Origin: a virus
Length of the DNA: 64,000 nt
Reading direction: 5' to 3' (one strand)
Virus record (IMG/VR): IMGVR_UViG_3300045988_165521
Shown: positions 28,413 to 58,137 of the stretch, in pieces
Numbering within the stretch: the stretch's first letter is position 1
Layout: each line of letters begins with the position of its first letter
Notes under the pieces: model-generated
The model's database searches: none
What the model was told of the DNA's origin: nothing
Seen by the model: only the letters and a program-made list of their open reading frames with translations
Program-made: the position numbers and the translations under genes

Positions 28413-29822
28413 TTACTTTTCACTAACTAAGATAAAGCTACGATATGGGTTGAATACACCAACACCAGCATAACCCCAGTCAATAAGTTTAGTTGCAGCT
28501 ACTGGGCTTGCAACAGGACCACTTTCACGTCCACTTCTACGACCAACACCCTCTAACCAGTTATGGCAGAACTCATTGTTCTTGAATGTGAACATTGCAA
28601 TAGCGGGTTTTCCACTAGCAGCATCAGCAGTCAGATCAAGGAAGATACCATATTTCTTCTCAGGGAATTCGTTATCAAGAGCACGGTCAACTTTGAAAGT
28701 TACAGTATTACCTGCATACTCGTATGAGTTATAGGTTGCACCAACTTTGATATAATCATTAGCACCCTTAGAGAACATGAATGTACCAACAGTCTTCCAG
28801 TCACGAAGATATCCTGACAGACTATCTTGAATTTCAGCCCACATAGGAGTATTGCAAATAAAGATATATTTATTGCCAGTAGGATTATTTGATTTAGCGA
28901 TCATGGCAAGGATAGCGGTATTCATAACTTTATTAGTCATCTTTGAATACACATATTTACCTGCGAAACGCTCAATCTGAGGAATAATACCATCGCCAGA
29001 GATAATAGGCTCACCTGTTTCAGGATCAAAGATCTTAGGTTTACCATTCTTATCTACGTTAGTCTTACCCCAAAGCAGTGCATTTGCACGAGCAGCCATG
29101 AAGCTATCAAGACAATCTTTTTCTGCAGCATTCATTTTGTAAACAGGATCACTTTCTGTTCCTTTACCAATCTGAATGAAAACGTCCTCCATTGCACGAT
29201 ACTTAGCAGTGTAGTCTACATCTGCACGGTGTGTTGCAATAAATGTACGATGCTTTTCAACATTTGACTGATACTTAACGTATCCTTCCTCATGCATTTC
29301 AGGCTGATAGTTCGTTAAGAAACGAGTCTTCATACCTGGCTGGCAGAATTCAACATCAAGAGTAGCATTGTAATCTGAATCTTGTAGTTTACCTACAATC
29401 TCCCAGTCTCTATCTGATCTACGAACAGGACGTGACAGGAAGATAACTTGCTGACGTGATCCTTCGATGATCATTACGTCATTTCTCTGATAATAATTTT
29501 CAGGGAAGTGGAAGATGATATCGGTACCCTGAGCACCATCGCCATCAGGAACCTGTAGGAAAGGAATTCTCTTAATAAATCCTACATTAATGTCCCACTC
29601 TACCATAAATGAATTAATACTTTGGAAACTATTTTTCTTGTCTTTTTCCATTGTATATATATTCATCAGAGATTCAGTAAGGTACGATGCGGTATACTGC
29701 TCATAAAGTGATGATACAATACCAAGACGTGCAGGTTTTTCACCTAAAAATTTGTAAAAATCCTCATATGTACGAGTTGAACTCATCTGAGGACGTACTG
29801 TACTAAAACTAGAAATTCTCAT
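28413..29822 (-). CDS. putative major capsid protein, 469 aa
   Basis: Intact ORF, GC-richer than its surroundings. All 7 Trp are TGG and there is no TGA. An acidic scaffold-like gene lies directly upstream and a terminator downstream. The identity is positional and compositional, not homology-verified. Confidence 0.6.
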   Translation of the reverse strand: MRISSFSTVRPQMSSTRTYEDFYKFLGEKPARLGIVSSLYEQYTASYLTESLMNIYTMEKDKKNSFQSINSFMVEWDINVGFIKRIPFLQVPDGDGAQGTDIIFHFPENYYQRNDVMIIEGSRQQVIFLSRPVRRSDRDWEIVGKLQDSDYNATLDVEFCQPGMKTRFLTNYQPEMHEEGYVKYQSNVEKHRTFIATHRADVDYTAKYRAMEDVFIQIGKGTESDPVYKMNAAEKDCLDSFMAARANALLWGKTNVDKNGKPKIFDPETGEPIISGDGIIPQIERFAGKYVYSKMTNKVMNTAILAMIAKSNNPTGNKYIFICNTPMWAEIQDSLSGYLRDWKTVGTFMFSKGANDYIKVGATYNSYEYAGNTVTFKVDRALDNEFPEKKYGIFLDLTADAASGKPAIAMFTFKNNEFCHNWLEGVGRRSGRESGPVASPVAATKLIDWGYAGVGVFNPYRSFILVSEK

Positions 29823-34615: not shown

Positions 34616-34909
34616 CTAATTGTTTTCTATAAATTTATCTAAGTCTTTCTTATATCAAAACAATTCTTTAAAACCTATTTGTTTACGACCATTAGGAATC
34701 TTCTTTGCCTTAACATAATTGTCAAAAGTCGCTCTACTAACTTTTAAGTATTTACATGCTTGATACTTGCTAAGTTTTTCATTCTTATTAGTTATTCCAG
34801 AAAGATATTCAATTACTTCTTCGCACTCTTCTGGACTAAGATTAGAATTACCAGTATCGATATCGTTAACAATTTTTAATAAAATTTCTCTAATAATCTT
34901 TAATATAAT
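34616..34909 (-). CDS. excisionase/AlpA-like helix-turn-helix protein (~97 aa) lacking an ATG/GTG/TTG start
   Basis: An open frame encodes ..LSKYQACKYLKVSRATFDNYVKAKKIPNGRKQIGFKELF[TGA]YKKDLDKFIENN, with TAG at 34616. The only candidate start is ATT at 34909, sitting in a TAATT junction with the fibre stop. This is the same register as the TAATG junctions elsewhere. Confidence 0.4.
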
Positions 34910-36783
34910 TAACCATAAATTGCCCCATTAACTAAAACAACGCCTCTAACATAAGTTATACAGTAGCATTTGTAGTTTCCGCCAGATAAACTATCAATTC
35001 CATCCATTTTGTGATAGTTTTCTCCAAAAGTTACATCAACAGTATTCGCTACTAAGATAATAGCATCAGGATTATTTTCTGTAACATATACTTCAGTTAC
35101 ATTCACAGAGCCACTGCTAGCAAAATACAATCCTGGTTTACCTGGAGTGTCTACAGAAGGTAGTTTTTTTGCATAAATATTATCTAAATCAATAGTAGAT
35201 GCTGAAGATCCTGTATAACTTGTAGTTGAACCTCCTGCAGTAACATTTAATGCATATGGGTTTGGAAGTGCGATAGGAATTTCAGGTATATCGTTAACAT
35301 TTGCTGGAGTAAAGCCTAAAGCAGTTTTAACTGTAGTATCTTTTAAGAGAGTATAAGCAGTACCATCCTCTAAGACATATATGGCCATTTCAGCACCTCC
35401 AGACTCTGTATATCCTGTCTTAATTCCTCCTAAAACATTATTTTTAGCTACAGGCAATGTATATGAAGATCCAGGAGCACTATTAGTAATAGTTAAAGTT
35501 CCATTAGAAAATGATAGACCAATACCAGTACCATTAGCAATAGTTAATGTAGTAGAACTATCATTTAAAGTTGTACTTCCAACTTTAACTGGTCTTCAAG
35601 TATTCTCGGTGGAATATCCTTGGCCCGTAACTCAACTTTGAGTAGCATATCCACTTAAAGATGGTATTTCACTCTTTAATGCTAAATTAGAAAGTGTCTG
35701 TCCAGAATTTTTAATAGATTTAGGTCCCGCTCCAATTATAATATAATCTACAGCAAGATTTCCACTAGCCATTACATCTCCACCACCTGCTGAACCAATT
35801 TTTTCATCAATTTCAGATTGAGAATAAGTTTCAGACTTTGTATAACGATTATTTAATGCTTCAGTAACTACTTTATTTTGGACAGGATTAACAGAACTTG
35901 TACTTAAAGAAGAATCAACTACAGTTCCATCAGGTATATCAAAATTAAGATCTGATTCATCAACTTTGTCTTTATAAGCAAGAGCTCCTGCATCTGTAAT
36001 TTGAGCTAGAGGATGAGTATGTGCTGCAGGAACATAAGTTTCTGGTTTTCCTGTAACTTTATCTCATGCTATTTCTTTCTCATCAACATATGACTTTAAT
36101 GCTAAATTATTAATTAAAATACCTGAATCTTTAACAGTTTTTCCTGGACCATTAGAAGTTATTACTCTATCCGCAGTAGTAAATGCCTCTGCTGCAATTA
36201 CATCTCCTGCTCCAAAACCTGTTAACTTATCGTCAACTTCGTCTCTTGTATAATAATTAGAAAGATCAATTTCTGTATCACCAATCTTCTCTCATTTTCC
36301 ATCAACAAATACATATTCATCATGTATATCTGGAGCAGAACCAGATTTCTTAACAAGATAAATAATATTTGTCTCTCCAACACTTGGAAATTGATCAACA
36401 ATCTCAATTTGAAGATTAGCTAAATTAGCAATCATTTCTTTTAAGATTCTTCCTTGGTTTGCAGATAATGATTTATCAGCAGCAAGAGACTCTAAATTAT
36501 CTACAATTGAACTTTTTATCTGATTATTAATAGTTGTATGTACATTATCAATAGCTTGTCACACTCCTCCAGAAGTAATTAAATTTTTACTTCCTTCTGT
36601 CGGCTCTTCTTCTATTGAATTAATAATTTTTGGTATATCAGTTAATACTTTAGCATATTCTTCTTTAGTGCCTGTATACCCATTTTCTTGTGCAATAAGA
36701 TAAGCATCTTTACCAGGAGCACCAATTGTTCCAGGAAAAATAATCCATTTCTTTTGCTTTTTATCATAAATTTTTACACTCAT
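34909..36783 (-). CDS. tail fibre paralog 2, 624 aa
   Basis: ATG at 36783. Pieces 36559..36783 and 34909..35457 are in one frame. All triplets across 35458-36558 were checked and contain only TGA. Fibre motifs are HTHPLAQITD, DGK[TGA]EKIGD and SGYATQS[TGA]VTGQGY. Confidence 0.75.
35270..35319. repeat. 50-nt exact direct repeat, copy A (inside fibre paralog 2)
   Basis: gcgataggaatttcaggtatatcgttaacatttgctggagtaaagcctaa is identical to 37149..37198. Confidence 0.9.
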
Positions 36784-36802
36784 AATTTATATATTTTTAA
36801 GA

Positions 36803-38695
36803 TTATGCATATACTGCACCATTAACTGCAATTTTGCTATTTGCCATATAACTTAAGCAATAGATATATCACGTCCCAGATAAATCATCTAATCCATCCA
36901 TTTTAATAACATTACTTGCAGTAAATGTAAGTTTAGCACTACTTATAATAACTGAATCAGGATTGGTTGAAGAAAATCCATTTAAAGTTGATATAGCTTT
37001 TGATGTATCACAACTGTAACTATATCCTGCATCAACTGTTGAACTAGTCAACATTCTTACACTTAAAGGTTTTGAAGTACTAATAGATACTGCAGATGAA
37101 CCTGTGTATGAAGTTCCATTAATTGTTAATGCATATGGATTAGGTAATGCGATAGGAATTTCAGGTATATCGTTAACATTTGCTGGAGTAAAGCCTAATG
37201 CTGCAGTTACGGCTCCTTTAGTAACAGCTATATATGCTTGATTTGAACTGTTTAAAACTAAAGGTAAATTAACCCCTGAAGCAGTAGCTCCAATCTTTAT
37301 ACCTCCAGCTTCTGTTGATGTAGCTATATAATTAAATCTGCCGAAGGCGTTAAATTCAAGGGAGCTCCCAATGATAAGATCTGAAATATTAGCATCCTGA
37401 GCTGATATACCTCCCCTAAATATTTTTTCTCCTGCAAATGACTGATCTCCAGTAGTTACTACACCAGATTGTGTAGCAGAAGCTGAAGGGATTGCTCCAA
37501 ATGAAACTGTACTCATTCCAGAACCAGTTAAAGAACCTGTTGGTCCTGCTGTTGTTCCATTAGTCCAAGTAAACGTTGTTGGATAATAATTTGTATTAGT
37601 GTCTGTCCAAGGCACATTTACATAGGCTTTACCATTACTTAATTGTACAGCATAGTTTTTGTCACTTGTTGTATATCCAATTTGAATTCCTCCATAAGCA
37701 CTAGAGGTTGCGGCAGGAATACTTGTTAAATATCCTTGACTAGTTACTCAATTTTGAGTAGCATACCCCGATAAGGATGGGATAGTTGGTTTATTAGTTA
37801 AGTCATTATAAGATCCACTTGTAGCTACAGTAGCGAATGTTGGTTTACCTGTTACTCCAGACCAAGGTACACTAGTTGCACTTCCTGCTGTGAATTCTTT
37901 AAATTTAGTAGCAAAAGTAGATGCAGATTCTGATACGCAGAAGTACATAGGACCTCCTGAACTAATCTGAACAACATCTCCCTCTTGAACATCTACACTC
38001 ATTGCGGCAGATTGAGAATCTACTACAAACAGCCTTTCTAATGCAGCTGCAGGAATTTTTTCAATAGGAATTTCTGGCAATCTATCTACATTAATAATTC
38101 CAGTAAGTTTTTCAGCATTAATAGTACTTATTGTTGTGTTTATAGTCACATTTTTAGATCCATTAAACGATTCTGTAGTAGAACCAGTGACATCTCCGTC
38201 TAAAAATATATTTCTACCATACATTAATGTTTCTGCGGATGATGTTTTAGAAGCATAAGGTATAGTAAACTCTGTAGAGGTTTTATTTCCAACAGTTATT
38301 TTTATAGTATTACCATTATTAATAAATGAAGGTGCACTTGCAAGATTTGTAGCTGTAGTAGCTGTAGCTGCATTACCAGTTATGTTAACTTGTTCTGGAT
38401 GCCTATGATCTTCACGTGCATATTTTGTAGATGTTCCAACTGCTGCAGTACCTGCAATAAGTGGTGCTACTGTCGCAGGACTAATTTTTCCTGCATTAAC
38501 TAAAGCTTCAACTTCTGAAGCACTGATATCACATTTATATTCTTTACCCCAAGTACAGATCATTGGACCTTCATCAATAAAGGATATATATGCGTCAAAT
38601 ACTTTACGTTCCTCTGTTCCTGCAGTAGTTTTTGCTCTTTCGGCTTCGTATGATGCTTTAGTTTTAAAATGTAAAAATTTTGTTTTATATGCCAT
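36803..38695 (-). CDS. tail fibre paralog 1, 630 aa
   Basis: ATG at 38695. Pieces 37748..38695 and 36869..37615 are in frame, joined via TGA at 37748 and 36869. TAA at 36803. The C-terminus ..KMDGLDDLSGT[W]YIYCLSYMANSKIAVNGAVYA parallels the paralog 2 end ..KMDGIDSLSGGNYKCYCITYVRGVVLVNGAIYG. Confidence 0.75.
37149..37198. repeat. 50-nt exact direct repeat, copy B (inside fibre paralog 1)
   Basis: Identical to 35270..35319, with imperfect flanks (about 72 nt similar in total). Confidence 0.9.
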
Positions 38696-38743
38696 AGCGT
38701 CTATATTTTTATAGCACCTATAATATTATAGGTTAAAAATAAA

Positions 38744-38767
38744 GGGAATAGGGAAATCCCTATCCCC
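38744..38767 (-). terminator. terminator hairpin after 38781..40385
   Basis: gggaataggga / tccctatcccc, followed by a T-rich run on the minus strand. Confidence 0.6.
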
Positions 38768-38780
38768 TTATTATCTTAAT

Positions 38781-40385
38781 TTATTCGAATTCAACCCAAG
38801 TCATTAAACCATCAGCATAAGCTTTTACATCACTAGCTTCAGCAAGACCTTTAGCAGTTGAACTTGCACTAGCTACAGCCTGCAGCATAGAAGTAACTGT
38901 TACTGTAGTTTCACTTTTACTAGTTGCGATATAATTAGAAACAGTGCCATTAACTACCTGAATTGCAGAATCAGCTTTAGCACCTTGAGCAGAAGTTGCA
39001 TAAGCACTTGATTCGGTATAAGCTGCACTCTTAAGACCATTAACTGTACCTTTAAGCTGTTTACTAGACATGCTAAATTTAACCTGTCCATTAGTAGTAT
39101 TAGCTGTATCTACAGTAATAGCTCCAGTCTGTCCTCCAAATGATTGAACTCTAGAAGCAGCGGCAGAAGTAATTCTGCTATCCATTGCTTCAATTGCAGT
39201 TTGAAGATCATTCTCACCATATGTTCCATCACCTCCAACTAGAATATCTGCACCAGCAAGTACTACATTAGCTGATAATGGTTTACTATTAACAGTTCTT
39301 GTAGTTGGAACCTTTCCATTAAGAGCAGTATCAAGTCCAGAGATTTTAGAAATAGCTAAAGTAGGAATATCACCTGCTACAAGAGCTCTGCGGGAAACAG
39401 TAATAATACCATTAGTTTCAGAAACTGCAGAAACAACTTGTCCAGCGACAGCCGTATCAGTTTTATCTAAAGTTCCAATCTTAGTGCTAATTTCACTTGT
39501 AACTGTGGTTTTAGTAGCATAAGCAGATAGATCAATTGTTCCACCTAGCTTATCCCACATTCCTATTTTATTTCCTGCACCAGCTTTAATTGCTACAAAG
39601 TTTGAACCAGCTTCAAAAGCTTCTCCATTTAGAGTGCCTGCAGCAACTACATTATAAACATCGCCAATAACAACTCCTGTAAGAGCAGTAAGAGCTGAAG
39701 CATCATCTACAGAACCCTTCGTCTTGTATACACTACCAACAGCAGAAGCTACTTTTTTATCAACTTCTTCTTTAGTGTACGTAGTAGCTTGAGGAGCTGC
39801 TGCTTCAGCTGTAGCTTTAACTGCATTAAGAGCAGTTGTAGTAGCTTTAGCCTCAAGGACAGCTGTCAATCCAGAAACTTTACTTTGCTCAATTGTACCT
39901 ACAGCAAATGTAACAGTACTATCACCACTATCACGACTTTGTGTAATAGTAGTACCGTCTGCTCTATAAACAATAGCGGCAGGAATTTTGCCAATCTCAG
40001 TGTCTGTATATGATTTAGCTGAACTAATTGCAGACGATTTTGCTTCATCTGTATATTTCTTCAGTCCATAATAACTCTGTACAGTTGAGGCATCTCCAGA
40101 TGCTCCAATATTTAACTTCTTTGCTAGCTCTGTAGTAACTGCAGAAGCTGAGGCTACATCTGATAGATTTAGAGAAATCTCTTCTCCACTTTCGTTAATA
40201 ATTTTAAGGGTTTTAGCACTCTCATCCCAACTTGCAGACTTGACGCCATCACCGAATTTATCAACAGCAGTAGCACTTGTTGCTACTTTAATCATACCTG
40301 TTGATGTTTCAAAGTAAATTCTACCAACTACAAGACCACTTGCTGGAACTGTAGCAATTTTTTGAAAACTTAAATTTGTTGCCAT
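38781..40385 (-). CDS. fibre/spike-like structural protein, 534 aa
   Basis: Intact TGA-free ORF, rich in A/T/S/G/V, bracketed by an upstream hairpin and a downstream terminator. Confidence 0.65.
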   Translation of the reverse strand: MATNLSFQKIATVPASGLVVGRIYFETSTGMIKVATSATAVDKFGDGVKSASWDESAKTLKIINESGEEISLNLSDVASASAVTTELAKKLNIGASGDASTVQSYYGLKKYTDEAKSSAISSAKSYTDTEIGKIPAAIVYRADGTTITQSRDSGDSTVTFAVGTIEQSKVSGLTAVLEAKATTTALNAVKATAEAAAPQATTYTKEEVDKKVASAVGSVYKTKGSVDDASALTALTGVVIGDVYNVVAAGTLNGEAFEAGSNFVAIKAGAGNKIGMWDKLGGTIDLSAYATKTTVTSEISTKIGTLDKTDTAVAGQVVSAVSETNGIITVSRRALVAGDIPTLAISKISGLDTALNGKVPTTRTVNSKPLSANVVLAGADILVGGDGTYGENDLQTAIEAMDSRITSAAASRVQSFGGQTGAITVDTANTTNGQVKFSMSSKQLKGTVNGLKSAAYTESSAYATSAQGAKADSAIQVVNGTVSNYIATSKSETTVTVTSMLQAVASASSTAKGLAEASDVKAYADGLMTWVEFE

Positions 40386-40409
40386 GTTTATTTTTTTTTA
40401 AATTTTAAT

Positions 40410-40440
40410 CCCCCCCCCTCACTAAATGTGAGGAAGGGAG
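40410..40440 (-). promoter_or_regulatory. RNA hairpin whose 3' arm is a G9 homopolymer, in the leader of the 38781..40385 gene
   Basis: The minus strand reads CTCCCTTCCTCAC ATTTA GTGAGGGGGGGGG, a 13-bp stem including G-U pairs. The C9 run lies at 40410-40418 on the plus strand. An A9 run follows (40391-40399) before the ATG at 40385. Confidence 0.5.
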
Positions 40441-40459
40441 AAATTATTATTTATTCAAT

Positions 40460-42829
40460 TTATGATCAAAATATATCAAGCTTACCGTCTGTTCCAACTT
40501 GGATAGATGAACTTGTTGATACTAATTTAGACATATCTACAGCTAAACCTCTAGAAGTACCTTCACCAGTTACCTTAATAGTATTATCGGGACTAGTAAT
40601 AGATGTAATGCCACCTGCAACAGCAGTTTTAATACTATCACTAAGAGCCTGCATACCAGCAGCGATTGTTTGATCTGCACCAATTTCAGCACCACCAGTA
40701 ATGGAAACTCCAACTTTTACAGTTGAGCCTTTTATTCCACTAAGATCCAACTTAAGACCTTCGGCTGATTTTGATAGTGCTTCATTTGAAGCTGGATCTA
40801 ACTTAACATCAATAACATTTTCTTCTGTAATTGAAACTGCATTACCAGGAGTTAATTCGTCTTGCTTACCTCCAACAGATGTTTGTAAAGATTCAATGTC
40901 AGATTTATTAGTTCTGATTTGATTTAAATCAGTATCAGAAATTAAACCTGAACCTTCAACTTTATCAACTTTGTTATTAAGCTGATTAGTAACTGTAGTA
41001 ATCTGTCCTTCTAAAGCTGTATCTGCAGCCTCTAGTTCTGTTTTTGCTGCAGAAATTGCATCATCTACTTGTGACTTTGTATAGTATCCTGAAAGATCAA
41101 TTGTACCTCCCAGTGGATCCCACTTGGCACCATCCCAAGCATAATTAGTTCCAGCAGGAGTAGTTCCATGAGCTGCAACGACATTCCATACATCACCTTT
41201 CTTATTTCCAGAAGATGGAAGTTGGTCGTAACTATCTTTAGTACCTTTATAATCAAGAGCTGCAGCCACAGAAGCTTTCAGATCATCTATAAGAGTTTTT
41301 AAAGCTTTACCTTGTGCCGCAGAGAGTGCAGCATCCGTTTTATCACTTTCAAGTGAATCAATAATCTCAACTATTCCTGCTGTATTAGGAAATGATTTTC
41401 AAGCAGCTTCGAATTGTTCTTGATTGAGAGTACCACCAACAGCAATATAAGAATTGTATAAAAAGTCTTGAACTGAATATTCATCCATGGATTCATCACA
41501 AGGATCATATCAAATCTTATCGTGCTCTGGTTCGTTATTTGGAAAATCAGATTGACATCCGATTGCTATATTTTCATCACCAGGATCTCCTTTTTCTCCC
41601 TGAGGAATTCCAAATTTAAGATTTGCATCACTAATATCTGGATTTAAATCAGTTACATAAGGTTGTGCATCTGGTGCTAATTTTTCTACTTCAGAAACTA
41701 CAGTTACTGTAGCAGGTTTTCCTTTAGGAACTTTTACATTTAAAGCTCATTCTCTAGGAGCATTAGTTTTATCAATTACTAATGACGGATTTTGATCTCA
41801 CTCAACAGTTTCAATAGTTCCTGCATTAAATCTTGGAAGAACAGAACCAGTAGAAGTAATCACTTTACTTGATTCCATAGTTAATTCCAAATGACCTTCT
41901 GCATCACTAATATTAACTGATTTAATACTATCTCCTCTTAATTCTTCTAAATAGCATAGTGTAACCCATTCACTAGTAGGATCTCCTAAATATCCCCATA
42001 GAATTCTATCATCTGTTAAATTATCAGGATCTCCAAATTTTCTAACAAGTGCAGGTGTTCTTCCAGAATCTCCTTTAGGTCCCTGAGGTCCTTGTGCTCC
42101 AGTAGCTCCAGTATTTCCCTTGTCGCCCTTGTCACCTTTGGCTTGTCCTAATTTAATTCATGATTTTGGTGGATCATTCTTATCATAAGAAACAAACCAA
42201 TATCCGTCTTCAATTTTCAATTGAGGCGTTATACCATCTTCACCGTCTTCTCCAGGAATGCCAGGTGCTCCAGTAGCTCCTGTTAAACCTTCAGCTAAAA
42301 CTCTTTGTCCACTATCGTCAAATATTCATTCAGTTTTTTCATTAATAGATACTGTTCAATAATAATGATTATTAGATGTATCCTTTTTAATGCCGATAAT
42401 AGGAGTATCTCCAGCGGGGCCTTTAAGATCACTTATTGAGGTTGAACTTGGAGGAGTATTACTTTCTTTTCAAGAAAGTATTCCGTTATTAATCTCTGGA
42501 ACTCATACTTTTCCTGTAGGTCCTTCAACTCCCGCCATTACAAAAGCTCAGAAAAGATTTGGTTTAATACCAATGATTTTATCGTTTTCTCGAACTAATT
42601 CAGGCATATTTAACGAAGATGATGTATGACTTCTAATGCAAGACAATAAAGCTCCTTCAAATGATACAAAATCTACAATATATTCGTCATTAAAATAGTG
42701 AGTATTTGTTATTCATTCTCCCGCCATCTTAAAGGAAGTTCCCTTATAGAAATCTCTTGAATTATAAGCTCCAGAATACTCTCTTGAATTTTGTAGATCT
42801 ATAGTAGGTAATATATTATTTTTCTTCAT
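40460..42829 (-). CDS. collagen-like tail fibre, 789 aa
   Basis: ATG at 42829. One frame down to TAA at 40460 (..DIF[W]S). All lines from 41270 to 42829 were checked triplet by triplet. G-X-Y runs include GDKGDKGNTGATGAQGPQGPKGDSG and GLTGATGAPGIPGEDGEDG. Confidence 0.75.
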
Positions 42830-42835
42830 AGTTTA

Positions 42836-45800
42836 TTATTTTGACCCTAATATTAAAAATGGAACACTAATACTTGTTGTTGGTACTTTGCCGTCTGCAG
42901 TTCTTACATCTAAAAAAGCTCCATTAATCCTGCCTCTTGCTGAACCATAGAACATTTTTAGCATAGCTCCATCTCATATAGGTTGTGAAAAAGCTATTGC
43001 ACTTATTGATAAAGTTCTACTATTATAAATACTTGTTAAATCTAAATTTGCAGAAAAATTTCCAGATTGACTTACAGTTAATACTAAATCAGTTCTACAT
43101 CTAGAAAAACCAGATAAAGATGGTACCCCAGATGAATTAAAATAAACTTCTCCACATGCTAAAAATGAATCACTATTATAATCGTCATAACTTTTATAAT
43201 AAAGATCTGAACGTAGCGTTCCATTTTGTTTCCATGTTTTTAACTCAAAATCTGATGTATTCTCTACTCAAATTGTTCCAACATAGTAATTATTAACTAT
43301 TGAAGATGGAACAAATTTAAATTCTAATACTCCTCCAGCTGGAAGTAAAATTTGAGAAGCATTAAAAAGAATTGGTTCATCATAACTGAATAGTAATCTA
43401 CCATTATAATAACCACAAATTTTAATAGATTCATCATCGTTTCCATTATCAAATGGATATATAAATAATTGTTTATCCGACTTATTATGAATTACTCCCG
43501 AATACGAATCATCAATATTTAATTGATATTCAGAAGCATTTACTTTAAGAGTTACATCTTCGTGTATCGTTGGCGAATATATAATTTCAGAATATAATGA
43601 ATCTAGTATATGTGGATCAGATGACTGAGTAAGACTATATTGTTTAATGTTTTGAATAATAGCATTATTAATTTTAATGTTAGTTAAATCAACACTTCCA
43701 TCACTACCAAACTTAATCTTTCCAGCAGCCATATGTCCAGCTCCAGTTCTAAAATCAAATAGTATATTTGGAGTAAACTCACCTTCTGTAGGAATTTCTG
43801 GATCAAAGTTTTGATATTGTGTAGATATTTGTCCACTTGCATCAATACCTTGTTGGCTAAACATATAGTTTCCATTAAATACAGCAGATCCAATAAGACC
43901 GTTAGCGATAATCCCAATTTTAGTATACAGCGCCTCAAATGCATCTAATTTAACTCAACTATTACTAGTATCAGTGCTAGGAGATTCATTACTGTGTAAT
44001 GTTCCTTGCCAAGTTCCTACTATGTTTAAAACATAATAGTTAGCATCATTAGAATCATATACATAAGGAGTTTTATCTGCGGTTCCTTGATATACAGTAT
44101 TAACATTATAAATACCTTCAGGATAAATTATTTGTCCTTTAGAACCATTCTCTCCATTTAATCCATTAGTTCCACTTAATTTAGTAGGAGTACTTCAACT
44201 ACCTTCAATTGTACCAACTTTATCAGTGTTACTTGTATAATTTACTCTAGCTTGAATAAACCAAATATAAGGAGTCTCTTCAGTTGGAGTTGGAACCGCT
44301 AAATCCCAACCTGTTGGCTGTCTTGTTGTTCCAGGAGTACTTGTTCCTCCATAAATAGTTGTAGTTCCTAAGCAATAACGAACTTCAATACCAATTCCAG
44401 GTAACCCATCAACTCCATCTTTACCTGCTGGACCAGGATCACCAGTAATTCCAGGTTCTCCTTTTATTTTGGTTCATTTATAGTCAGAAGGATCATCACT
44501 ATCATTTATATTATAATCTACATAAATTCCAATTCAAGCACCTGGATCTTCTCCATTGTTACCTGTAAAGGTTACACCTCCATCATTAGAGTATTTAATA
44601 TGTAGATAACTTGTTTTTCCATCTTCTCCGTTAGTACCTGGGATTCCTTGTTCTCCCTTTTCTCCTTGAATTCCTTCAAATCTTGCCCAAGTATAGTCAG
44701 AGGGATCTGTACTATCTGCTTGAGTAAAATCTACATAAGTTCCAATATATGTACTTGGAGTTTCAGTCATTTGACTTGAAGAAGTAGGGTTGGCAACAGC
44801 AGAATATTTAATATGAAAATATGTAGTTTTTCCATCTTCTCCTGGAGTTCCAGGAATTCCGTCTGTACCATTCGTACCATTTTCTCCACTTATAACAACT
44901 GGAGCAGTCCAGTTTGTATTTAAAGTATCATCAGGATTAATAGTTGCTGTAGTCATCCAGAGATATCCATCTTTAGATTTTTCAGGAGGAACCACAGACC
45001 ATCCTGAAGGAGTTCTTACTGTTGCGTTTAATGTAGGAGGATTTGAATTACTTGTATTTACAGCAAATCTAAATTCTGTAAATTTGCCATCTTGAGCTTG
45101 GCCATCTCTACCATTAACTGGTATTACTTCTGACCATTCAGTTACAAGTCCTGTTTCTCCATTAACTGTTCCAATACATTGCCACCAGTTTCCACTAGTT
45201 GTAGGATAATCTTCCCATTCAGACGGACTAGGACTATTTCCTGTAGGTTTTGATGGTTTACTATCACTTAATTTATAAACGTATGTTTTCCAATTTGGTA
45301 TTACTGCATCCTGTCCCTTTTCTCCTGTCATTTGAACAGGATCTGACCATTCTCCAACAAGAGTAGAATCTCTAAAAGATGCTGTAATTGACCATATAAT
45401 TTCAGAGGATGTGTGAATTGGAACAACTGTACTTCATACAGAACCAGGATTTGCATTAGTTTTATTTACAACAGGAGGAGTATTGACACTTCCACTCTTT
45501 GCATACATTAACTTAATACCTAATCCATCCTCTCCATTAGAACCATCAGTCCCATTTGTTCCGTCCTTGCCATTCTCTCCATCTTTACCATCAGCTCCTT
45601 TAGGTAATCCAAAACTAAATTTAAATATATCTCCTTCTAAAACTACATTAGCATTAGCTTCAGTTGTTGAAGAAACACTAGCTACTTCTGCATCAAAATT
45701 AGGAATTTCTCCGCCTTCAGAAATAGTTTTTCATTCTGTATCATAATCTGCATCAGATTTTTTAACTAATGCTTGACCAGTAGTTCCTCCAGGAATTACT

Positions 45801-46309
45801 CCAATTCCATCAGAGCCATTCTTTCCATCAGTTCCATTTTGCCCAGGATCACCTGTAGCTTGGCCTATATCTTGTCAAGTTTGACCTTTATCCATTGAAA
45901 GTAGTCAACGACCGTCTTCAATTTTTAATTGTGGAGTAATACCATCAGTTCCACTTGGTCCGATAGGACCAATATCGCCTTTATCTCCTTTTTGACCTTT
46001 ACCACTATTTCCCATAATAAAAGCTCAATACGGATTAGATTCTACACCAACAATTATATCGTCTTTATAAATTAGATTCGGCTTATTTCATTCTGATGAT
46101 AAATGACCTCTTAGACAATACAATAAAGCTCCTTCACAAGATATAAAATCAATAATATGTTCATCGTTGAAATAATGAGTGTCTGGAGTTCAGGCTCCTG
46201 CCATCTTAAAAGATGTTCCTCTATAAAAATCTCTAGAACTATACATTCTATAATAGTCTTGAGAATTTATTGCATTATCTATGATTACATTAACATTAGA
46301 TCTCTTCAT
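42836..46309 (-). CDS. collagen-like tail fibre, 1157 aa
   Basis: ATG at 46309. Pieces 44534..45331 and 43268..43864 are in frame. All gaps were checked. TAA TAA at 42833-42838. There are six G-X-Y blocks. The N-terminal ~60 aa are homologous to the N-terminus of 40460..42829. Confidence 0.75.
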
Positions 46310-49790: not shown

Positions 49791-50067
49791 ATTCTAATAC
49801 TATATATTGATTTCCTTCACCTGGAGTAGTCATTTCTCCAGAATAATATTTTGTTCTATCTAGTTGTCTGTTTCTAAGTTCTTTTTCAAGAAATTCGAAA
49901 AAACCTTCTTCATCACCTTCATAGACTAAAACTAGTGGAGCTTTTCATTGATTTAAATCTAAACTTAATTTCCATTGATTACCATCTATAGTTAATGTAA
50001 AGTCTCCAGTGTAATATGCACACATAGCCTTTTCAATTATTTCATATACTTTATCAACGAGTTCCAT
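49759..50067 (-). CDS. small hypothetical protein (102 aa) between TerL and portal
   Basis: ATG at 50067. Two in-frame TGA, no TAA/TAG. It overlaps the TerL end and the portal start. Confidence 0.4.
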
Positions 50068-52360
50068 TCTTTTGCGGTATTACTCCATATTCTTTATAGC
50101 CTTTTTCATTAGTGAACCATCCAATATTTTCTCATTCTTTTGCTAATTTATCTTGAGCGGCAGGTCGTATATTCATTAGCTCTTCATCTGCAATTTCCGC
50201 CATTTCCATGCTCGCGATAATATCAAACTTTCGTTTATTTTCTCAAGAATATTTTAACAATTGCTCAAGCATTTCATCAATATCAATTGAATAACAGTAA
50301 TCATTAACAAAATTATTAATTAATTCAAGACCATGCTTGATAATAGCTTCTGTAGCTGGTACACCAATCATTTGTGAGTTGCCTCTTTTCATATCTCCAA
50401 GAGTTGAAGCAGGACGTTTCATAAATAGACTATCTTTCTTTTTTTCTTTAAAATATGTAACAATACTAATCTTAGTATGTTCAAGTAGTGCTTTACAATT
50501 ATATCATACTAATAACTTCATTGCTACATCATACGCTTCTCGAATATCTCGAGGACGATCTTTATAGATCGCAACATATTTCGCTTCTTGTAATCCATAT
50601 ATACGTTTCTTAATAACTATACAGAAATCAGATACATCTGTTGAGGTAGAAGAATCTCCAGAACCTTGGTCAATAGAGTCTATTCCTGCAACATATAAAT
50701 TTTTTAATACAAGACCATCTTCGTCACGAAGTGGCCTTTCATATATAGCAATTTTACTATTTGGATTATTTATAACTTTTACTTTTGTTAAATCAGGAGT
50801 ATCTCCAGAACGATCTCATAATAATGATACATACTCTGGTTTTAATCCTGCTTTAAATATCCTAATTTGGGTTAATCTATCTGCAATTGCAATTGAATCA
50901 AAGATATTTTCACCCTGCTTATATAATGCTTCATTTGGAATAAAACAGTGCTCTGCACAATAATCAAGTAGGTCTTTGCCACTTAATTTTTTACGTTCTT
51001 CCTCATAAAACTTTTTAAATTCTTCAGATTGTGTAACGCCTCTTGTATCTAAGAATTCTTCTCGTAAACTAAACTTATGAGCTGGAATAAAGAAAGCTGT
51101 TAATTGTGGTTTTCTATCTTCTGTATCATAGTTTTTATATGGAAGTACATTATACCCTTCTGGTTTTGCAAAAATGTTTGATAAACCTTCAAGTGCCATA
51201 TCATCACCACCTGTACCTAAAGCAATACGTGTTCCAAAATGATAACCACCAAGCTCAACAAGAGCATTACCTTGAATCCAACTTTTAGTTAAATATTTAT
51301 TAGATCCTGCTTCTTCATAGATTAATCTGTCGACACGATCACCACGAATTTTATCAGATGTATCAGCAATTACTGAATCAATTTCTGACATTCAACCATA
51401 TTCAACTCCATCAGGAGTAACTTGAGATGCACGCTTAGTATCTGCATTATTAACTTTTTGTCGTAGGTGGCGCATACCTCCATTAGTATTCATGTCTAAT
51501 CAGTTTAACTGTTTTCAACATTTAGTTTTTAAAGGAGTAAGTTTACCTTCTGCAGCACAAGTTAATAAAGAACGATAACCTCTATTAGTTATATAAGGCC
51601 TTACTGCTAAACAAGCAACAATCTCAGATAATCCAATACCACGAGCTTTTAATATAGCTACATCTTTGTGTAGTCTTTCAGCCATTTCAACATAATGAAA
51701 GAATTCATATTGTTTAGCTAGAAATGTAGGAAACTTTTCATTACGACCAGCACCACCTCTAGCTCCTTCAGAAATAACTTCCATTCTATAGAAATTTAAA
51801 AAGAAATAATGATCTCCTGTAATTCTATATTTACCAACTGTATAACCTTCAGTACAACGTTTATATTGTTCTCTTCAGAAATCATTATAAGGCTTTGAAT
51901 CTGCAGGATATTCAGTATATGATCCAGTTCTATCATAAATTTGAGCTAGTTCATTAAAAGGAGTAGGATCAAAATCTAAACCTTGAGTTTCATTAATTGG
52001 GCGGTATCCAGTTAATTCATATGATAACTCTGGATCAAAGTAAAGTACGTCTTCGGTGACCGCCACATCTCACAAACCATCTCTCTTTTTATAAAAATCA
52101 GTTGCAGTATACTCAAATTGTTCTGTAGTATCTTCTTTCTGATCTCCAAGCATTTCTTGTAATTGCTTTTTTAATTCTTCTTCAAATTTATCTGAAAAAG
52201 ATTGAGGAGTTGGTTCAGGACCTTTTATTGATTCTCTAAGCTCTTTATATTTCTCTTTAGTTGTTTTCTTTCTTTTGACTTCTGATTCTTCTTTATTTTT
52301 TATCTGTTCAAGCATTTTTTTACGTGCTTGAGACATTGAAGATTTAATTGTCTTTACCAT
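50051..52360 (-). CDS. terL: terminase large subunit, 769 aa
   Basis: Track ORFs 52070..52360, 51875..52066, 51515..51784 and 50816..51391 are all in one frame. Every gap was checked triplet by triplet and contains only TGA. TAA at 50051. TerL-like motifs are YFFLNFYRM, KARGIGLSE (Walker-A region) and GTGGDD. Confidence 0.8.
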
Positions 52361-55594: not shown

Positions 55595-55801
55595 TTACCA
55601 TTTATTGTTATAGCATTGTTCGTCTTCAACTCTTACTTTTGCATCTAATACGCATCCACAAAGATCACAAATATCTTGTCCACATAATTTTGTTTTATAC
55701 GAGCAAGTGCTACAAATTGCCAGTCTTTTTTCTGCTAATTCAGATTTTTTATTAAATATTTTTCTATACCATCCAATAATTATATTCTTAACTTTCTTCA
55801 T
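55595..55801 (-). CDS. Zn-ribbon (CxxC...CxxCGC) small protein, paralog 2
   Basis: MKKVKNIIIGWYRKIFNKKSELAEKRLAICSTCSY..CDLCGCVLDAKV..C..KW. The start was chosen at ATG 55801 by analogy with paralog 1. Confidence 0.55.
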   Translation of the reverse strand: MKKVKNIIIGWYRKIFNKKSELAEKRLAICSTCSYKTKLCGQDICDLCGCVLDAKVRVEDEQCYNNKW

Positions 55802-55940
55802 AATATGCTTTACAAAAATTACCTGATCCAGTGTACTTGTCATTACTTAAATCTCCAGTATGCTTGTGTTTTCCTATATAATATCTGCCACTCGGAAATC
55901 CGCAAAGAAAATGTATTTTATAAATATAATATATTACCAT
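55788..55940 (-). pseudogene. GIY-YIG homing-endonuclease remnant (50 codons, N-terminal half only)
   Basis: MVIYYIYKIHFLCGFPSGRYYIGKHKHTGDLSNDKYTGSG.. carries the GIY and YIG elements but stops before the rest of the catalytic domain. Confidence 0.5.
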
Positions 55941-56206
55941 TTCATTACTATACATTTTGCTGCAGGCAGTTTTGTTTTTCGATTAAGAGCACATCCGCAT
56001 CCTTTTCTATATCCAATTTTTGGTCTATCTGAATAGTCTGTTTTATTATTTTCATTAATATATAATCTAGGATTACATATCGGACCCATTGGTGTTTCTT
56101 TGTATAATGGACATTCTTTACAAATTGCTAATCTTTTTTCAGATAAGTCTTCATTTTTATTAATTGCTTCATTAACATGTCCACTAATAATATCTATTAG
56201 TCCCAT
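55934..56206 (-). CDS. Zn-ribbon (CxxC...CGC) small protein, paralog 1, 90 aa
   Basis: ..SEKRLAICKECPLY..C..GCGCALNRKTKLPAAKC..KW. Intact ORF. Confidence 0.6.
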   Translation of the reverse strand: MGLIDIISGHVNEAINKNEDLSEKRLAICKECPLYKETPMGPICNPRLYINENNKTDYSDRPKIGYRKGCGCALNRKTKLPAAKCIVMKW

Positions 56207-56208
56207 AA

Positions 56209-58137
56209 TTAAAATACTATAGGTTTATCTAAATCTAATTCAGATTTAATCTTAACGTCTCTTTTATAATGTTTAAGCATTCTTTCAACATCTGATTTTA
56301 AATAATCACATTCATGTTCTGAAATATGATTGTTGTGATCAATATGAATTAATACTAATTTTTTAATATTAAAGTTTGGATTAATTTTTTGTAGTAAGTA
56401 AGCATATAATGATAACTGCAACGAATAATGATAAAAATTACAATCCATAATATTATCCATTGGGAATTTCATCATAGTTCTACTTTTAGTAAATTTATTA
56501 TAAAATGATTCTTTTTCTAATTTCTTATTAGTATTATGTGTAACTATCATTGAATCACCGAATAAAAACGTGTGTGATGGACTGTCAACTTCTAAGCATT
56601 GCGTTGCTACTGTATCAACTCTTTCTACAGATATAATATTTCTAAATGTATTCTTATTTTTAGATGGGAAGTCGATATCTTGATTTCTTACTAAAAAGGG
56701 ATTTAATCCATCAGTTGAAAAACATACATCTCATCCTTTAAATATCTTTCCATTACATTTTTTATCTACTTCAAAAACAGTAGCTTTTATGCCTAATGTA
56801 CTTACTAACCTTAATAAATCTTCAGCTTGTCATTTCTGAGTAGTTCCCATTACAAATCTTTTTCTAGATTCATGATAGTAACCATCAGTATCCATTAACC
56901 CTCTAAGCAAATCAAGTCTTTGTTGATAAGAGGCTCGCATATATAAATCAGGTATAAACTTATTATTTAGTATTCCTAGATCGTTAAGTTTTTTTCTAAT
57001 ATTATATATAGTTCGCATTTCCGCAGATTTTCCGTCAGAAAGATCTCCTCCAAAAGTATATCCTCTATTTTCTATTTCTTCCCATACTTTAGAGTTTATA
57101 TTAGTGATAATTCCACATGACTTAGAGCCATCTCCTAGTCAACATCCCAGTACATAAGGATCTATAGGAAGTTCTATTTCTGGAAGATTTAGAGGATTTG
57201 CGTTCATTATTTTTGGGATATTGTACGAGGTTCTTGGTTTATCAATTAACCACTTTGCAATATCTTCTGTGGTCATAACTACTTCCCTAAATGTTTTATC
57301 TATATTCCTAAAAGAAATAAGTCATCTATGTTCATGGTCTGCCACAATCGACTCTCCGTTATCAAAAGTTATTTTAAAACATGGATTGTAATGGATATCT
57401 GATTTATGTAACACTTTAGTTATATTTCCTTCTTTATCAAATATCTCTTCTCCCTCCTTTATATCCTTAATAGTTGTCCATCCGTTTTTAGTTGGAATTT
57501 TTGTATCTAGAGGGAGTCCTTTATAATCGTATATATAAATATCATTACCGTCTTTAATAAGTAAGTCAAGTTGTCCTGCAATTCTTAATAAACCATCTTC
57601 TGATTTATAACTAATCATAAATTCAGGATAAACTCCTTTTTCTAAATCTAATTGATAATATCCTTTCTTGCAAGTAAATTTTCCTCCAAGACCAAATTTC
57701 TTAAGATCTTGTTCTTCAGATTGATAATACATATTCTCAAATTGAGCATGTATTTTTGTTCCTCTTTCACAAGATTTATTTCTTTCTACTTCATACGATT
57801 GAAGTATTTCTGCCCGTTTATTTTCAAACTCTTCTTCGTTGATATTTAACTTTTCAAGTAAAGTTGGATTTCAACGTTTTGTATTTAGTAATGTAGTTTT
57901 AACAACTTTAAAAATTTCTGGTTCTACTAAAGCTTCGCAAGCTTTATATGCAGATCAGAATGCTGAATCAAACTCATTAACATATTTATGTATCAATGTT
58001 GTTACAGATACATAAGGCTTATTATCATATTTATCTAAGTACAGATGTTTTGCATCTGAATAAATAACATCTTCTGTTTCTTTGTCTACTTGATATCCAT
58101 TAACATATTTTTCCTTTACATTACTTAATTTTGGCAT
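56209..58137 (-). CDS. PD-(D/E)XK (RecB/Cas4-like) nuclease precursor containing an intein; extein about 313 aa
   Basis: One frame from 58137 to TAA at 56209. All gaps were checked and contain only TGA. Extein motifs are ERGTKIHAQFE, GQLDLLIKDGNDIYIYDYK|TNKK (the DYKT box is restored after intein removal) and YHYSLQLSLYAYLL (QxxxY). Confidence 0.75.
56533..57519 (-). mobile_element. intein (329 aa) with LAGLIDADG homing-endonuclease domain; class-3-type signature
   Basis: It starts GLPLDTKIPTKNGW (block A with Gly1 instead of Cys/Ser). Block B is GESIVADHEHRW (His at B10, Trp at B12). LAGLIDADG motifs are LGC[W]LGDGS and LLRGLMDTDGY. Block F is TQCLEVDSPSHTF (Cys where class 1 inteins have Asp). 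Block G is MIVTHN followed by Thr+1. Confidence 0.8.

What the first reader, a model, noticed from the sequence alone, without database searches (positions are those of the whole stretch)
56533..57519. Class-3-type (WCT) intein with Gly1 inserted in the DYK|T catalytic box of a PD-(D/E)XK nuclease
A 329-aa Hint plus LAGLIDADG element interrupts the nuclease exactly inside its ..IYIYDYK|TNKK.. motif. It lacks the canonical Cys/Ser1 nucleophile, since its first residue is Gly (GGA). It has all three residues that define mechanistic class 3 inteins: Trp at block B position 12 (GESIVADHEHRW), Cys at block F position 4 (TQCLEV, where class 1 inteins have Asp), and Thr at block G position 5 (IVTHN), followed by Thr+1. 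Class 3 inteins splice through a branched intermediate on the block F Cys and are comparatively rare. Three Trp codons inside the intein are TGA, including one in the first LAGLIDADG motif, so the element is adapted to the recoded genome.
Basis: partly seen in the sequence, partly recalled or inferred. Interest (0 to 1): 0.75.

Follow-up and report, generated by a model that had tools for sequence, protein, structure and literature searches.

The report
Class 3 intein in phage nuclease
A mobile, self-splicing protein insert (a class 3 intein carrying its own homing endonuclease) sits right after the catalytic lysine of a nuclease gene in a gut crAss-like phage that reads TGA as tryptophan; it is real and looks active, but it belongs to an intein lineage already described in phage nucleases.

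Summary
On the minus strand, reading TGA as Trp, window 56209-58137 is one 642-aa gene. Residues 207-535 (56533-57519) are a 329-aa Hint + LAGLIDADG intein inserted at DYK|T, motif III of a RecB-like PD-(D/E)XK nuclease. Direct alignment to the biochemically characterised class 3 Msm DnaB-1 intein places His B10, Trp B12, Cys F4, Thr G5, His G6 and Asn G7 exactly. Residue 1 is Gly and +1 is Thr. An intein-free allele 99% identical to the spliced extein reads DYKTNKK, which fixes both boundaries.

One correction: four intein Trp codons are TGA, not three.

Homing looks recent. Empty and occupied alleles coexist in near-identical phages. All 27 nucleotide differences from the empty allele lie in the 241 nt 5' of the site. 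Near-identical inteins sit in exteins up to 8% diverged. dN/dS is about 0.07.

It is not new in kind. Class 3 LAGLIDADG inteins at this nuclease motif are documented in actinobacteriophages. Gly1 is invariant in 94/94 homologues and is present in deposited phages (Traft412, Frankenweenie, Rollin). Zeta-group crAss-like phages are known for inteins combined with recoding. Splicing through Cys F4 is inferred, not shown.

The parts
56209..58137 (-). Whole precursor gene: 642 codons plus stop, read with TGA=Trp. It is a PD-(D/E)XK nuclease interrupted by the intein.
   Evidence: Under code 11 it breaks into fragments.
57520..58137 (-). N-extein, aa 1-206. It carries nuclease motif I (GTKIHAQFE, 57736-57762), motif II (AGQLD, 57559-57579) and motif III (D204-Y-K206, 57520-57528).
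   Evidence: Pfam PDDEXK_1 2.3e-7, 31.5 bits against a cut-off of 22; phrog_298 exonuclease 6e-26. The motif II Asp and the D.K of motif III are invariant in the 55-sequence alignment (P0001 D122, D135, K137). Coordinates.
57520..57760 (-). Tract of 241 nt immediately 5' of the insertion point that holds all 27 differences from the empty allele. Read as a co-conversion tract.
56533..57519 (-). Intein, 329 aa (precursor aa 207-535): Hint splicing domain split by a LAGLIDADG endonuclease domain.
   Evidence: AF2 model of the 81%-identical proxy P0001 plus Foldseek.
57481..57519 (-). Block A, GLPLDTKIPTKNG. Gly1 is the codon GGA at 57517-57519.
   Evidence: G1 is found in 94/94 aligned homologues. 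It aligns to Ala1 of Msm DnaB-1.
57316..57357 (-). Block B, GESIVADHEHRWLI: Asp B7, His B10 (57328-57330) and Trp B12 encoded by TGA (57322-57324).
   Evidence: DxxH is the class 3 form of block B.
57124..57159 (-). LAGLIDADG motif 1, PYVLGCWLGDGS. Its Trp is encoded by TGA at 57139-57141.
56875..56910 (-). LAGLIDADG motif 2, LLRGLMDTDGYY.
   Evidence: Pfam LAGLIDADG_3 hit over intein residues 201-254. D210 and G213 are invariant and D212 is at least 90% conserved.
56560..56610 (-). Block F, VATQCLEVDSPSHTFLF. Cys F4 is precursor C514, intein C308, at 56596-56598.
   Evidence: It aligns to Cys118 of Msm DnaB-1. It is C in 92/92 homologues.
56530..56553 (-). Block G, SMIVTHN|T: Thr G5 (56539-56541), His G6, Asn G7 (56533-56535) and Thr+1 (56530-56532).
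56209..56532 (-). C-extein, aa 536-642 plus stop, with nuclease motif IV QLSLY (within 56395-56427).
   Evidence: It is 324/324 nt identical to the empty allele.

Best explanation
This is a functional, recently mobile class 3 intein with a LAGLIDADG homing endonuclease. It is inserted after the catalytic Lys of motif III (D-Y-K|T) of a RecB-like PD-(D/E)XK nuclease, in the packaging/structural gene block of a TGA-to-Trp recoded, probably zeta-group, crAss-like phage.

Inferred protein mechanism, taken from the established class 3 pathway:
1. Cys308 (block F4, precursor C514) attacks the Lys206-Gly207 peptide bond, assisted by Asp B7 and His B10. This gives a block F branched thioester.
2. The N-extein is passed to the hydroxyl of Thr+1 (T536), giving the block G branched ester.
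3. Asn329 (N535) cyclises and releases the intein.
4. An O-to-N acyl shift restores DYK-TNKK, and with it an intact nuclease active site.

Inferred DNA mechanism: in mixed infections the LAGLIDADG domain cuts empty alleles at the DYK|T site. Repair then copies in the intein together with up to about 240 nt of 5' flank.

Shown here: the sequence anatomy, the boundaries, family conservation, purifying selection, and the population pattern of presence and absence. Inferred: the chemistry and the endonuclease activity.
For: - Boundaries: the empty allele P0121 is 99% identical to the spliced extein and reads ADYKTNKK. At the DNA level the C-extein is 324/324 nt identical.
- Class 3 signature: H64/W66/C308/T327-H328-N329 align to His65/Trp67/Cys118/THN139 of Msm DnaB-1. 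Those residues are defined as B:10, B:12, F:4 and G:7 in PMC5222942. The class definition comes from PMC2807308.
- Conservation: G1 94/94, H B10 97/97, W B12 97/97, C F4 92/92, T-H-N 92/92, T+1 90/92 (S in 2), down to 39% identity.
- Fold: the AF2 model of the 81%-identical proxy has mean pLDDT 87. Foldseek matches PI-SceI at 9e-18, and 6bs8/6rix with target TM 0.8.
- Selection: dN/dS is 0.07 over the whole intein, 0.10 over the HEN and 0.04 over each Hint half, against L014.
- Mobility:
  - There are zero to two mismatches per 900 nt further upstream and none in the first 300 nt downstream, but 27 in the 241 nt abutting the site. The last ~25 nt match an intein-bearing allele from a 30%-diverged phage.
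  - IMG/VR holds 5 occupied and 9 empty alleles sharing the same 3' flank.
  - L023's intein differs from the window's at 2/987 nt, while its C-extein differs at 26/324.
- TGA=Trp.
Against: - There is no biochemical evidence for this intein. I found no published splicing test of any Gly1 class 3 intein; the tested ones begin with Pro (MP-Be DnaB) or Ala (Msm/Mch DnaB-1, AceL NrdHF).
- dS is saturated (above 1), so the dN/dS values are approximate.
- One empty allele (L036) also carries the 'intein-type' flank DGNDIYIYDYK. The 5' tract could therefore reflect ordinary recombination between haplotypes, or precise intein loss, rather than co-conversion during homing.
Confidence: 0.85

Rival explanations
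1. The element is an intein but does not use the class 3 route. Thr+1 attacks the N-terminal junction directly (class 2-like), or the block F Cys is dispensable.
For: Residue 1 is non-nucleophilic, which classes 2 and 3 share. There is no experiment on this protein.
Against: The full WCT triplet, DxxH block B and Thr+1 co-occur and are invariant across the family. In every tested WCT intein the F4 Cys was obligatory, and Ser/Thr+1 or Cys+1 could not start the reaction. The closest solved relatives are proven class 3 inteins.
Confidence: 0.04
2. The intein is splicing-dead or decaying, like the Arthrobacter Arth_1007 Gly1 pseudo-intein. In that case the nuclease gene is effectively knocked out in this phage.
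For: A Gly1 class 3-like intein that is a pseudogene is on record. Crass-like phages can encode two or three PD-(D/E)XK nucleases, so loss of one might be tolerated.
Against: Unlike Arth_1007 (Asn at B10, no Cys at F4), every catalytic residue is intact here. The ORF is uninterrupted under code 4. dN/dS is about 0.07, including the Hint halves. The extein shows no decay: the C-extein is identical to the empty allele.
Confidence: 0.06
3. The intein splices, but its endonuclease no longer homes. The presence/absence pattern and the divergent 5' tract would then come from ordinary phage recombination, or from precise deletion.
For: These phages are mosaic, with patchy 76-99% identity along the flanks. 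An empty allele carrying the intein-type flank exists (L036).
Against: Both LAGLIDADG motifs and their acidic residues are conserved. dN/dS over the HEN is 0.10. All variation among occupied alleles is confined to the 241 nt abutting the site. A 99.8%-identical intein sits in an extein 8% diverged.
Confidence: 0.12
4. It is not one gene. The TGA codons are real stops or encode Gly (code 25), or the Gly belongs to the extein, so the 'intein' is an artefact of reading through.
For: Under code 11 the region is six separate ORFs, and no suppressor tRNA lies in the window.
Against: TGA columns align to Trp in 97/97 and 94/97 homologues, including standard-code genomes. Coding density is 0.87 under code 4 against 0.55 under code 11. 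The empty allele reads DYKTNKK, so Gly is intein residue 1.
Confidence: 0.01

Closest known systems
Class 3 LAGLIDADG inteins in Cas4/RecB-like exonucleases of actinobacteriophages (Kelley et al. 2016, PMC5050341; bioRxiv 10.1101/2025.01.02.630785). Examples: Mycobacterium phage Traft412 gp72, Streptomyces phage Frankenweenie gp79, MP-Catera Gp206.
   Same: The insertion point is the same, right after the Lys of nuclease motif III: (D/E)xK|T. The WCT signature, THN|T C-terminus and embedded LAGLIDADG domain are shared. Identity is 37-43% over the full 329 aa. Traft412, Frankenweenie and Pseudomonas phage Rollin also start with Gly: DYK|GLDLDT, DWK|GLALDT, DLK|GLPLGT.
   Different: The host here is a low-GC, TGA-recoded crAss-like gut phage rather than an actinophage. 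The extein lacks the Cas4 Fe-S cysteine cluster (seen by reading the sequences). Cluster C1 inteins (the Catera type) begin with Ser, and ScoobyDoobyDoo's begins with Ala.
Mycobacterium smegmatis DnaB-1 and M. chimaera DnaB-1 class 3 mini-inteins (PDB 6bs8, 6rix, 6riy)
   Same: These are the best solved-structure matches by sequence (6e-18), and they match the Hint part by fold (target TM 0.8). They share the ALALDT/GLPLDT block A, DxxHxW block B, the C-[VL]-E-V-D block F and THN. Lys is at -1 in both.
   Different: They are mini-inteins with no endonuclease domain, they have Ala1 rather than Gly1, and they are inserted in the DnaB P-loop (GK|S) of a bacterial chromosome.
Mycobacteriophage Bethlehem DnaB intein, the class 3 prototype (Tori et al. 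2010, PMC2807308)
   Same: WCT triplet, non-nucleophilic residue 1, Thr+1, LAGLIDADG domain and phage origin.
   Different: It has Pro1 and sits in a helicase. Its mechanism was demonstrated biochemically, which is not the case here.
Inteins of delta/zeta-group crAss-like phages that use alternative genetic codes (Yutin et al. 2021, PMC7886860)
   Same: The genomic setting matches: relatives' contigs are up to 171-183 kb, GC is about 31%, TGA is recoded, and introns, inteins and homing endonucleases are numerous. Intein insertion and recoded stops are combined in one gene.
   Different: The published worked example is a TerL gene with two Hint-Hop inteins and TAG codons. In the text I could read, a class 3 intein in the PD-(D/E)XK nuclease of this group is not described.

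Membership tests
Class 3 intein | No Cys/Ser/Thr nucleophile at intein position 1 | tested here: met
   Residue 1 is Gly (GGA, 57517-57519). The boundary is fixed by the empty allele DYKTNKK.
Class 3 intein | Trp at block B position 12, with His at B10 | tested here: met
   W66 and H64 align to Trp67 and His65 of Msm DnaB-1. Both are found in 97/97 homologues. This Trp is encoded by TGA.
Class 3 intein | Cys at block F position 4 | tested here: met
   C308 aligns to Cys118 of Msm DnaB-1. It is C in 92/92 homologues.
Class 3 intein | Thr at block G position 5, followed by His-Asn | tested here: met
   The T327-H328-N329 tripeptide is found in 92/92 homologues.
Class 3 intein | Ser or Thr as first C-extein residue | tested here: met
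   T536. Among homologues it is T in 90 and S in 2. Intein-free alleles have DxK|T in 101 and DxK|S in 15 of 116.
Class 3 intein | Splicing proceeds through a block F branched thioester and strictly needs the F4 Cys | not testable with these tools
   This needs expression and mutagenesis. It is inferred from PMC2807308 and PMC5222942.
Hint (Hedgehog/intein) fold | Horseshoe beta fold formed by the N- and C-terminal intein segments | tested here: met
   Tested on the 81%-identical proxy P0001 only. AF2 mean pLDDT is 87. Foldseek matches PI-SceI at 9e-18, and 6bs8/6rix with target TM about 0.8.
LAGLIDADG homing endonuclease (intein-embedded) | Two LAGLIDADG motifs with conserved acidic residues in one chain | tested here: met
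   LGCWLGDGS and LRGLMDTDGY. Pfam LAGLIDADG_3 gives 5.7e-7, 30.1 bits against a cut-off of 22.5. D130, D210 and D212 are conserved. Foldseek hits I-DmoI and PI-SceI.
LAGLIDADG homing endonuclease (intein-embedded) | Site-specific cleavage of the empty allele and homing | tested here: inconclusive
   The evidence is indirect. Occupied and empty alleles coexist, the divergent tract abuts the site, and the intein is less diverged than the extein. There is no enzymatic test.
PD-(D/E)XK (RecB-like) nuclease, the extein | Motifs I (HxxxE), II (D), III ((D/E)xK) and IV (QxxxY) | tested here: met
   Pfam PDDEXK_1 is above its cut-off, and phrog_298 exonuclease gives 6e-26. The motif II Asp and the D.K of motif III are invariant, and the Q is nearly so. 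A PDB sequence search of the extein found nothing.
Cas4 family | Four-Cys Fe-S cluster: one N-terminal Cys plus a C-terminal CX2CX5C | tested here: not met
   The window extein has no C-terminal CX2CX5C (sequence). Traft412 gp72 has SCARCDVALSC. File the extein as a RecB-like PD-(D/E)XK nuclease, not as Cas4.
Zeta-group crAss-like phage | Crass-type capsid and TerL, genome of about 145-192 kb, frequent opal or amber recoding, many introns and inteins | tested here: inconclusive
   Pfam Crass_capsid gives 9e-9 for 28413-29822, and TerL matches phrog_6681 at 9e-67. Relatives' contigs reach 171-183 kb. The window reads as code 4. No phylogeny was made.

The most novel reading that the evidence does not exclude
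The Gly1 form may be a distinct, strictly site-bound sub-lineage of class 3 inteins. It is found at (D/E)xK|T of RecB-like nucleases in phages of Actinobacteria, Pseudomonas and gut crAss-like viruses. On this reading, Gly at position 1 is mechanistically required, for example to let the block F Cys reach the Lys(-1) carbonyl, rather than being a neutral Ala-like substitute.

In addition, in recoded phages the catalytic Trp B12 and the first LAGLIDADG motif are TGA-encoded, and two TGA codons precede the intein. Nuclease maturation and homing would then be gated by expression of the phage's opal-suppressor tRNA.
Probability: 0.15. Interest if true: 0.45.

Novelty: new member of a known kind. 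Interest (0 to 1): 0.3.

Why it matters
This is a clean, well-bounded natural example of a class 3 intein caught in active circulation. Empty and occupied alleles, variable co-conversion tracts, and near-identical inteins in diverged exteins all occur within one population of uncultured gut phages.

It extends the known range of the nuclease-motif-III class 3 intein lineage from actinobacteriophages to TGA-recoded crAss-like phages.

It also shows that annotating such genomes needs both the correct genetic code and intein awareness. Under code 11 this gene appears as six unrelated ORFs.

For intein engineering, the invariant Gly1 / Lys(-1) / Thr(+1) junction is an untested natural variant of the class 3 N-terminal junction. 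None of this overturns current understanding.

Tried and rejected
- Code 25 (TGA=Gly) and real stops were rejected, because the TGA columns align to Trp and because of coding density.
- The alternative boundary with Gly in the extein (DYKG|L...) was rejected by the empty allele DYKTNKK.
Its code 4 translation is not recognised, and the DNA reference contains 'stops'. I used the 81%-identical P0001 as a proxy. Model coordinates are not exposed, so the distance from Cys F4 to the scissile bond could not be measured.
- A PDB sequence search with the spliced extein gave no meaningful hit.
- The supplementary tables of Tori 2010 are not held. Tori & Perler 2011 is not held. The supplement of PMC7891396 tabulates only WCT triplets, not residue 1. 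I therefore could not establish from the literature how common Gly1 is, or whether a Gly1 class 3 intein has ever been assayed.
- Cluster member counts (P0022: 90, P0121: 282) were considered as allele-frequency proxies and dropped, because some of those fragments are adaptor chimeras.
- L014 as the direct donor was rejected. Its intein is only 80% identical at the nucleotide level. The real donor is an unsampled or L024-like allele.
- 'Unique Gly1' was rejected. Gly1 is invariant in the lineage and present in GenBank phages. Sister class 3 inteins at P-loop sites start with Ala.
Full report
**1. What is there**

Under the standard bacterial code the region is a string of short minus-strand ORFs. 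Reading TGA as Trp fuses them into one 642-codon gene, window 56209-58137 on the minus strand. Six in-frame TGA codons occur: aa 61 and 89 in the N-extein, and aa 272, 333, 436 and 469 in the insert.

The insert GLPLDT...MIVTHN is aa 207-535, which is window 56533-57519 and 329 aa. This is exactly as reported. It is flanked by ...IYIYDYK and TNKKLEK....

Nothing else of note lies on the opposite strand; only a 56-aa chance ORF was listed there.

**2. Genetic code**

TGA=Trp is not an assumption.
- In an alignment with 97 homologues, the TGA at aa 272 falls in a column that is W in 97/97. The TGA at aa 333 falls in a column that is W in 94/97.
- Those homologues include proteins from standard-code genomes.
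- Across the window, greedy ORF coding density is 0.87 under code 4 and 0.55 under code 11. Stops are TAA (42) and TAG (4). Trp is encoded by TGA 138 times and by TGG 102 times.
- No tRNA lies in the window, so the suppressor must be elsewhere in the genome.

**3. Identity of the two parts**

The spliced extein (313 aa) hits Pfam PDDEXK_1 (2.3e-7, above threshold) and phrog_298 'exonuclease' (6e-26). It carries the RecB-family motifs:
- motif I, GTKIHAQFE
- motif II, GQLD
- motif III, DYK
- motif IV, QLSLY

The motif II Asp and the D.K of motif III are invariant in a 55-sequence alignment (P0001 D122, D135, K137). The extein lacks the Cas4 Fe-S cysteines that the mycobacteriophage homologue Traft412 gp72 has. 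It should therefore be called a RecB-like PD-(D/E)XK nuclease rather than Cas4.

The insert hits Pfam LAGLIDADG_3 and PHROG families of intein-bearing terminases (5e-30). Its closest solved relatives by sequence are the class 3 Msm DnaB-1 intein (6bs8, 6e-18) and the Mch DnaB-1 intein (6rix, 1.8e-17).

**4. Class 3 signature**

In the alignment, query H64/W66 pair with residues 65/67 of 6bs8, C308 pairs with residue 118, and T-H-N329 pair with residues 137-139. Tori et al. 2016 state that His B:10, Trp B:12, Cys F:4 and Asn G:7 of Msm DnaB-1 are His65, Trp67, Cys118 and Asn139.

Block B has the DxxH form typical of class 3.

All sequence criteria of the class as defined by Tori et al. 2010 are met: a non-nucleophilic residue 1, the WCT triplet, and Ser/Thr at +1.

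An AlphaFold model could be made only for the 81%-identical homologue P0001, because the tool rejects the TGA-containing window protein. That model has mean pLDDT 87. It matches bifunctional intein endonucleases (PI-SceI 9e-18), the class 3 DnaB inteins (target TM about 0.8) and I-DmoI.

**5. Boundaries and empty alleles**

A search with the spliced extein returned 2731 homologues. The best, P0121, is 313 aa, 99% identical and reads ...IIIADYKTNKKLEK.... This fixes Gly as intein residue 1 and Thr as +1. Among the 116 of the 120 listed homologues in which the motif was located, the junction is DxK|T in 101 and DxK|S in 15.

**6. Evidence that the element is alive and moving**

(a) Four contigs carry the empty allele in phages that are 95-99% identical to the window over the neighbourhood. 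Against them, the window's spliced CDS has 27 nucleotide differences. All 27 lie in the 241 nt immediately 5' of the insertion point, and 15 of them in the last 50 nt. There are none in the first 377 nt and none in the 324-nt C-extein.

(b) A 30%-diverged recoded relative (L014-L016) has the intein at the same site, with an identical amino-acid flank DGNDIYIYDYK. At sites that distinguish L001 from L014, the window switches from L001-type to L014-type in the last ~25 nt.

(c) In IMG/VR, five contigs carry the occupied C-junction and nine the empty junction, all with the same 3' flank.
- L024's intein is 987/987 identical to the window's.
- L023's intein differs at 2/987 nt, but its C-extein differs at 26/324.
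- All N-extein variation among occupied alleles is confined to positions -241 to -10.

(d) dN/dS against L014 is 0.07 over the intein, 0.10 over the HEN and 0.04 over the Hint halves. dS is saturated, so these values are approximate.

(e) Both LAGLIDADG motifs and their acidic residues are conserved.

One caveat applies. One empty allele (L036) also has the 'intein-type' flank. Haplotype recombination or precise loss therefore cannot be excluded as a contributor.

**7. Codon adaptation**

The nearest standard-code relative of the intein (P0001/L011; 81% aa, 76% nt identity) encodes all seven Trp with TGG and has no in-frame TGA.

The window's intein uses TGA at 4 of 7 Trp codons, which matches the window-wide 57.5%. 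L014's copy uses TGA at a different position (aa 296) and TGG at the window's four TGA positions.

This is synonymous TGG/TGA drift inside recoded genomes. The intein is equilibrated to the code, but nothing suggests special selection.

**8. How special is Gly1?**

It is not special to this copy. In 94/94 aligned homologues at this nuclease site, down to 39% identity, residue 1 is Gly and residue -1 is Lys. The same holds for these deposited phages:
- Mycobacterium phage Traft412 gp72: DYK|GLDLDT
- Streptomyces phage Frankenweenie gp79: DWK|GLALDT
- Pseudomonas phage Rollin: DLK|GLPLGT

At the same nuclease site, ScoobyDoobyDoo has Ala1 and cluster C1 phages have Ser1. Related class 3 inteins at P-loop GK|T sites of TerL and DnaB start ALxLDT.

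Gly1 is therefore a lineage trait. I found no report that a Gly1 class 3 intein has been assayed. The only Gly1 case discussed in the papers I could read, Arth_1007, lacks His B10 and Cys F4 and is a pseudogene.

**9. Context and comparison with the literature**

The window encodes a Crass-type major capsid protein (28413-29822) and a TerL (50051-52360). Relatives' contigs reach 171-183 kb. GC is 31%.

This fits the zeta group of crAss-like phages. That group is described as 145-192 kb, often opal- or amber-recoded, unusually rich in introns and inteins, and carrying a PD-(D/E)XK nuclease in the structural block.

Inteins in the PD-(D/E)XK motif of RecB/Cas4-like exonucleases were reported in 40 cluster C1 mycobacteriophages. 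A 2025 survey found 138 inteins in actinophage Cas4 exonucleases, class 3 with LAGLIDADG, inserted at motif III 'EFKT'. By 2020, 1701 class 3 inteins had been catalogued in nr.

**10. Verdict**

Mechanistically, this most likely splices via the block F Cys and homes via its LAGLIDADG domain (confidence 0.85). The chemistry is inferred from family membership, not shown.

It is a new member of a known kind. What is new is the host lineage and genetic code, not the architecture, the insertion site or the first residue. Interest is modest, at 0.3.

Noticed in passing
window 55788-55955 (-): A 55-aa ORF (MYSNEMVIYYIYKIHF...NFCKAYYEES) is the first ~50 aa joined to the last 5 aa of a 299-aa NUMOD1-type free-standing homing endonuclease. 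Its N-terminus looks GIY-YIG-like by eye; Pfam gave no hit on the remnant. The gene is intact in relatives L002 (11211-12110) and L004. The window copy is therefore an internal-deletion remnant. L001 and L003 have no such element at this spot.
   Followed up: partly
window 55934-56206 (-) and 55595-55843 (-): Two tandem paralogous small Cys-rich genes (...SEKRLAICKECP... and ...AEKRLAICSTCS..., both ending in KW) give weak, sub-threshold DUF6171 matches. The homing-endonuclease remnant lies between them.
   Followed up: partly
window 50051-52360 (-), site near 51215: The TerL gene (phrog_6681, 9e-67) has an empty intein site, RIALG|TGGDD. Close relatives L001 and L002 carry a 366-aa class 1 intein there (Cys1 ... 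ITHN|T, with a LAGLIDADG domain). Near-identical phages therefore differ by which intein each carries.
   Followed up: partly
whole window: TGA is read as Trp throughout: 138 TGA against 102 TGG in predicted genes, and coding density 0.87 against 0.55 under the standard code. Yet no tRNA gene, suppressor or otherwise, lies in these 64 kb.
   Followed up: partly
L036 505-535 (IMGVR_UViG_3300045988_167566): This intein-free allele carries the flank DGNDIYIYDYK|T that is otherwise seen with the intein. It could be the ancestral donor-lineage haplotype or a precise intein loss.
   Followed up: no
window 34909-46309 (-): This is a run of large, repetitive, apparently structural proteins. Two of them contain collagen-like G-x-x repeats (40460-42829, 42836-46309). 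Two others share near-identical C-terminal segments (34909-36783, 36803-38695). This was seen only by reading the translations.
   Followed up: no
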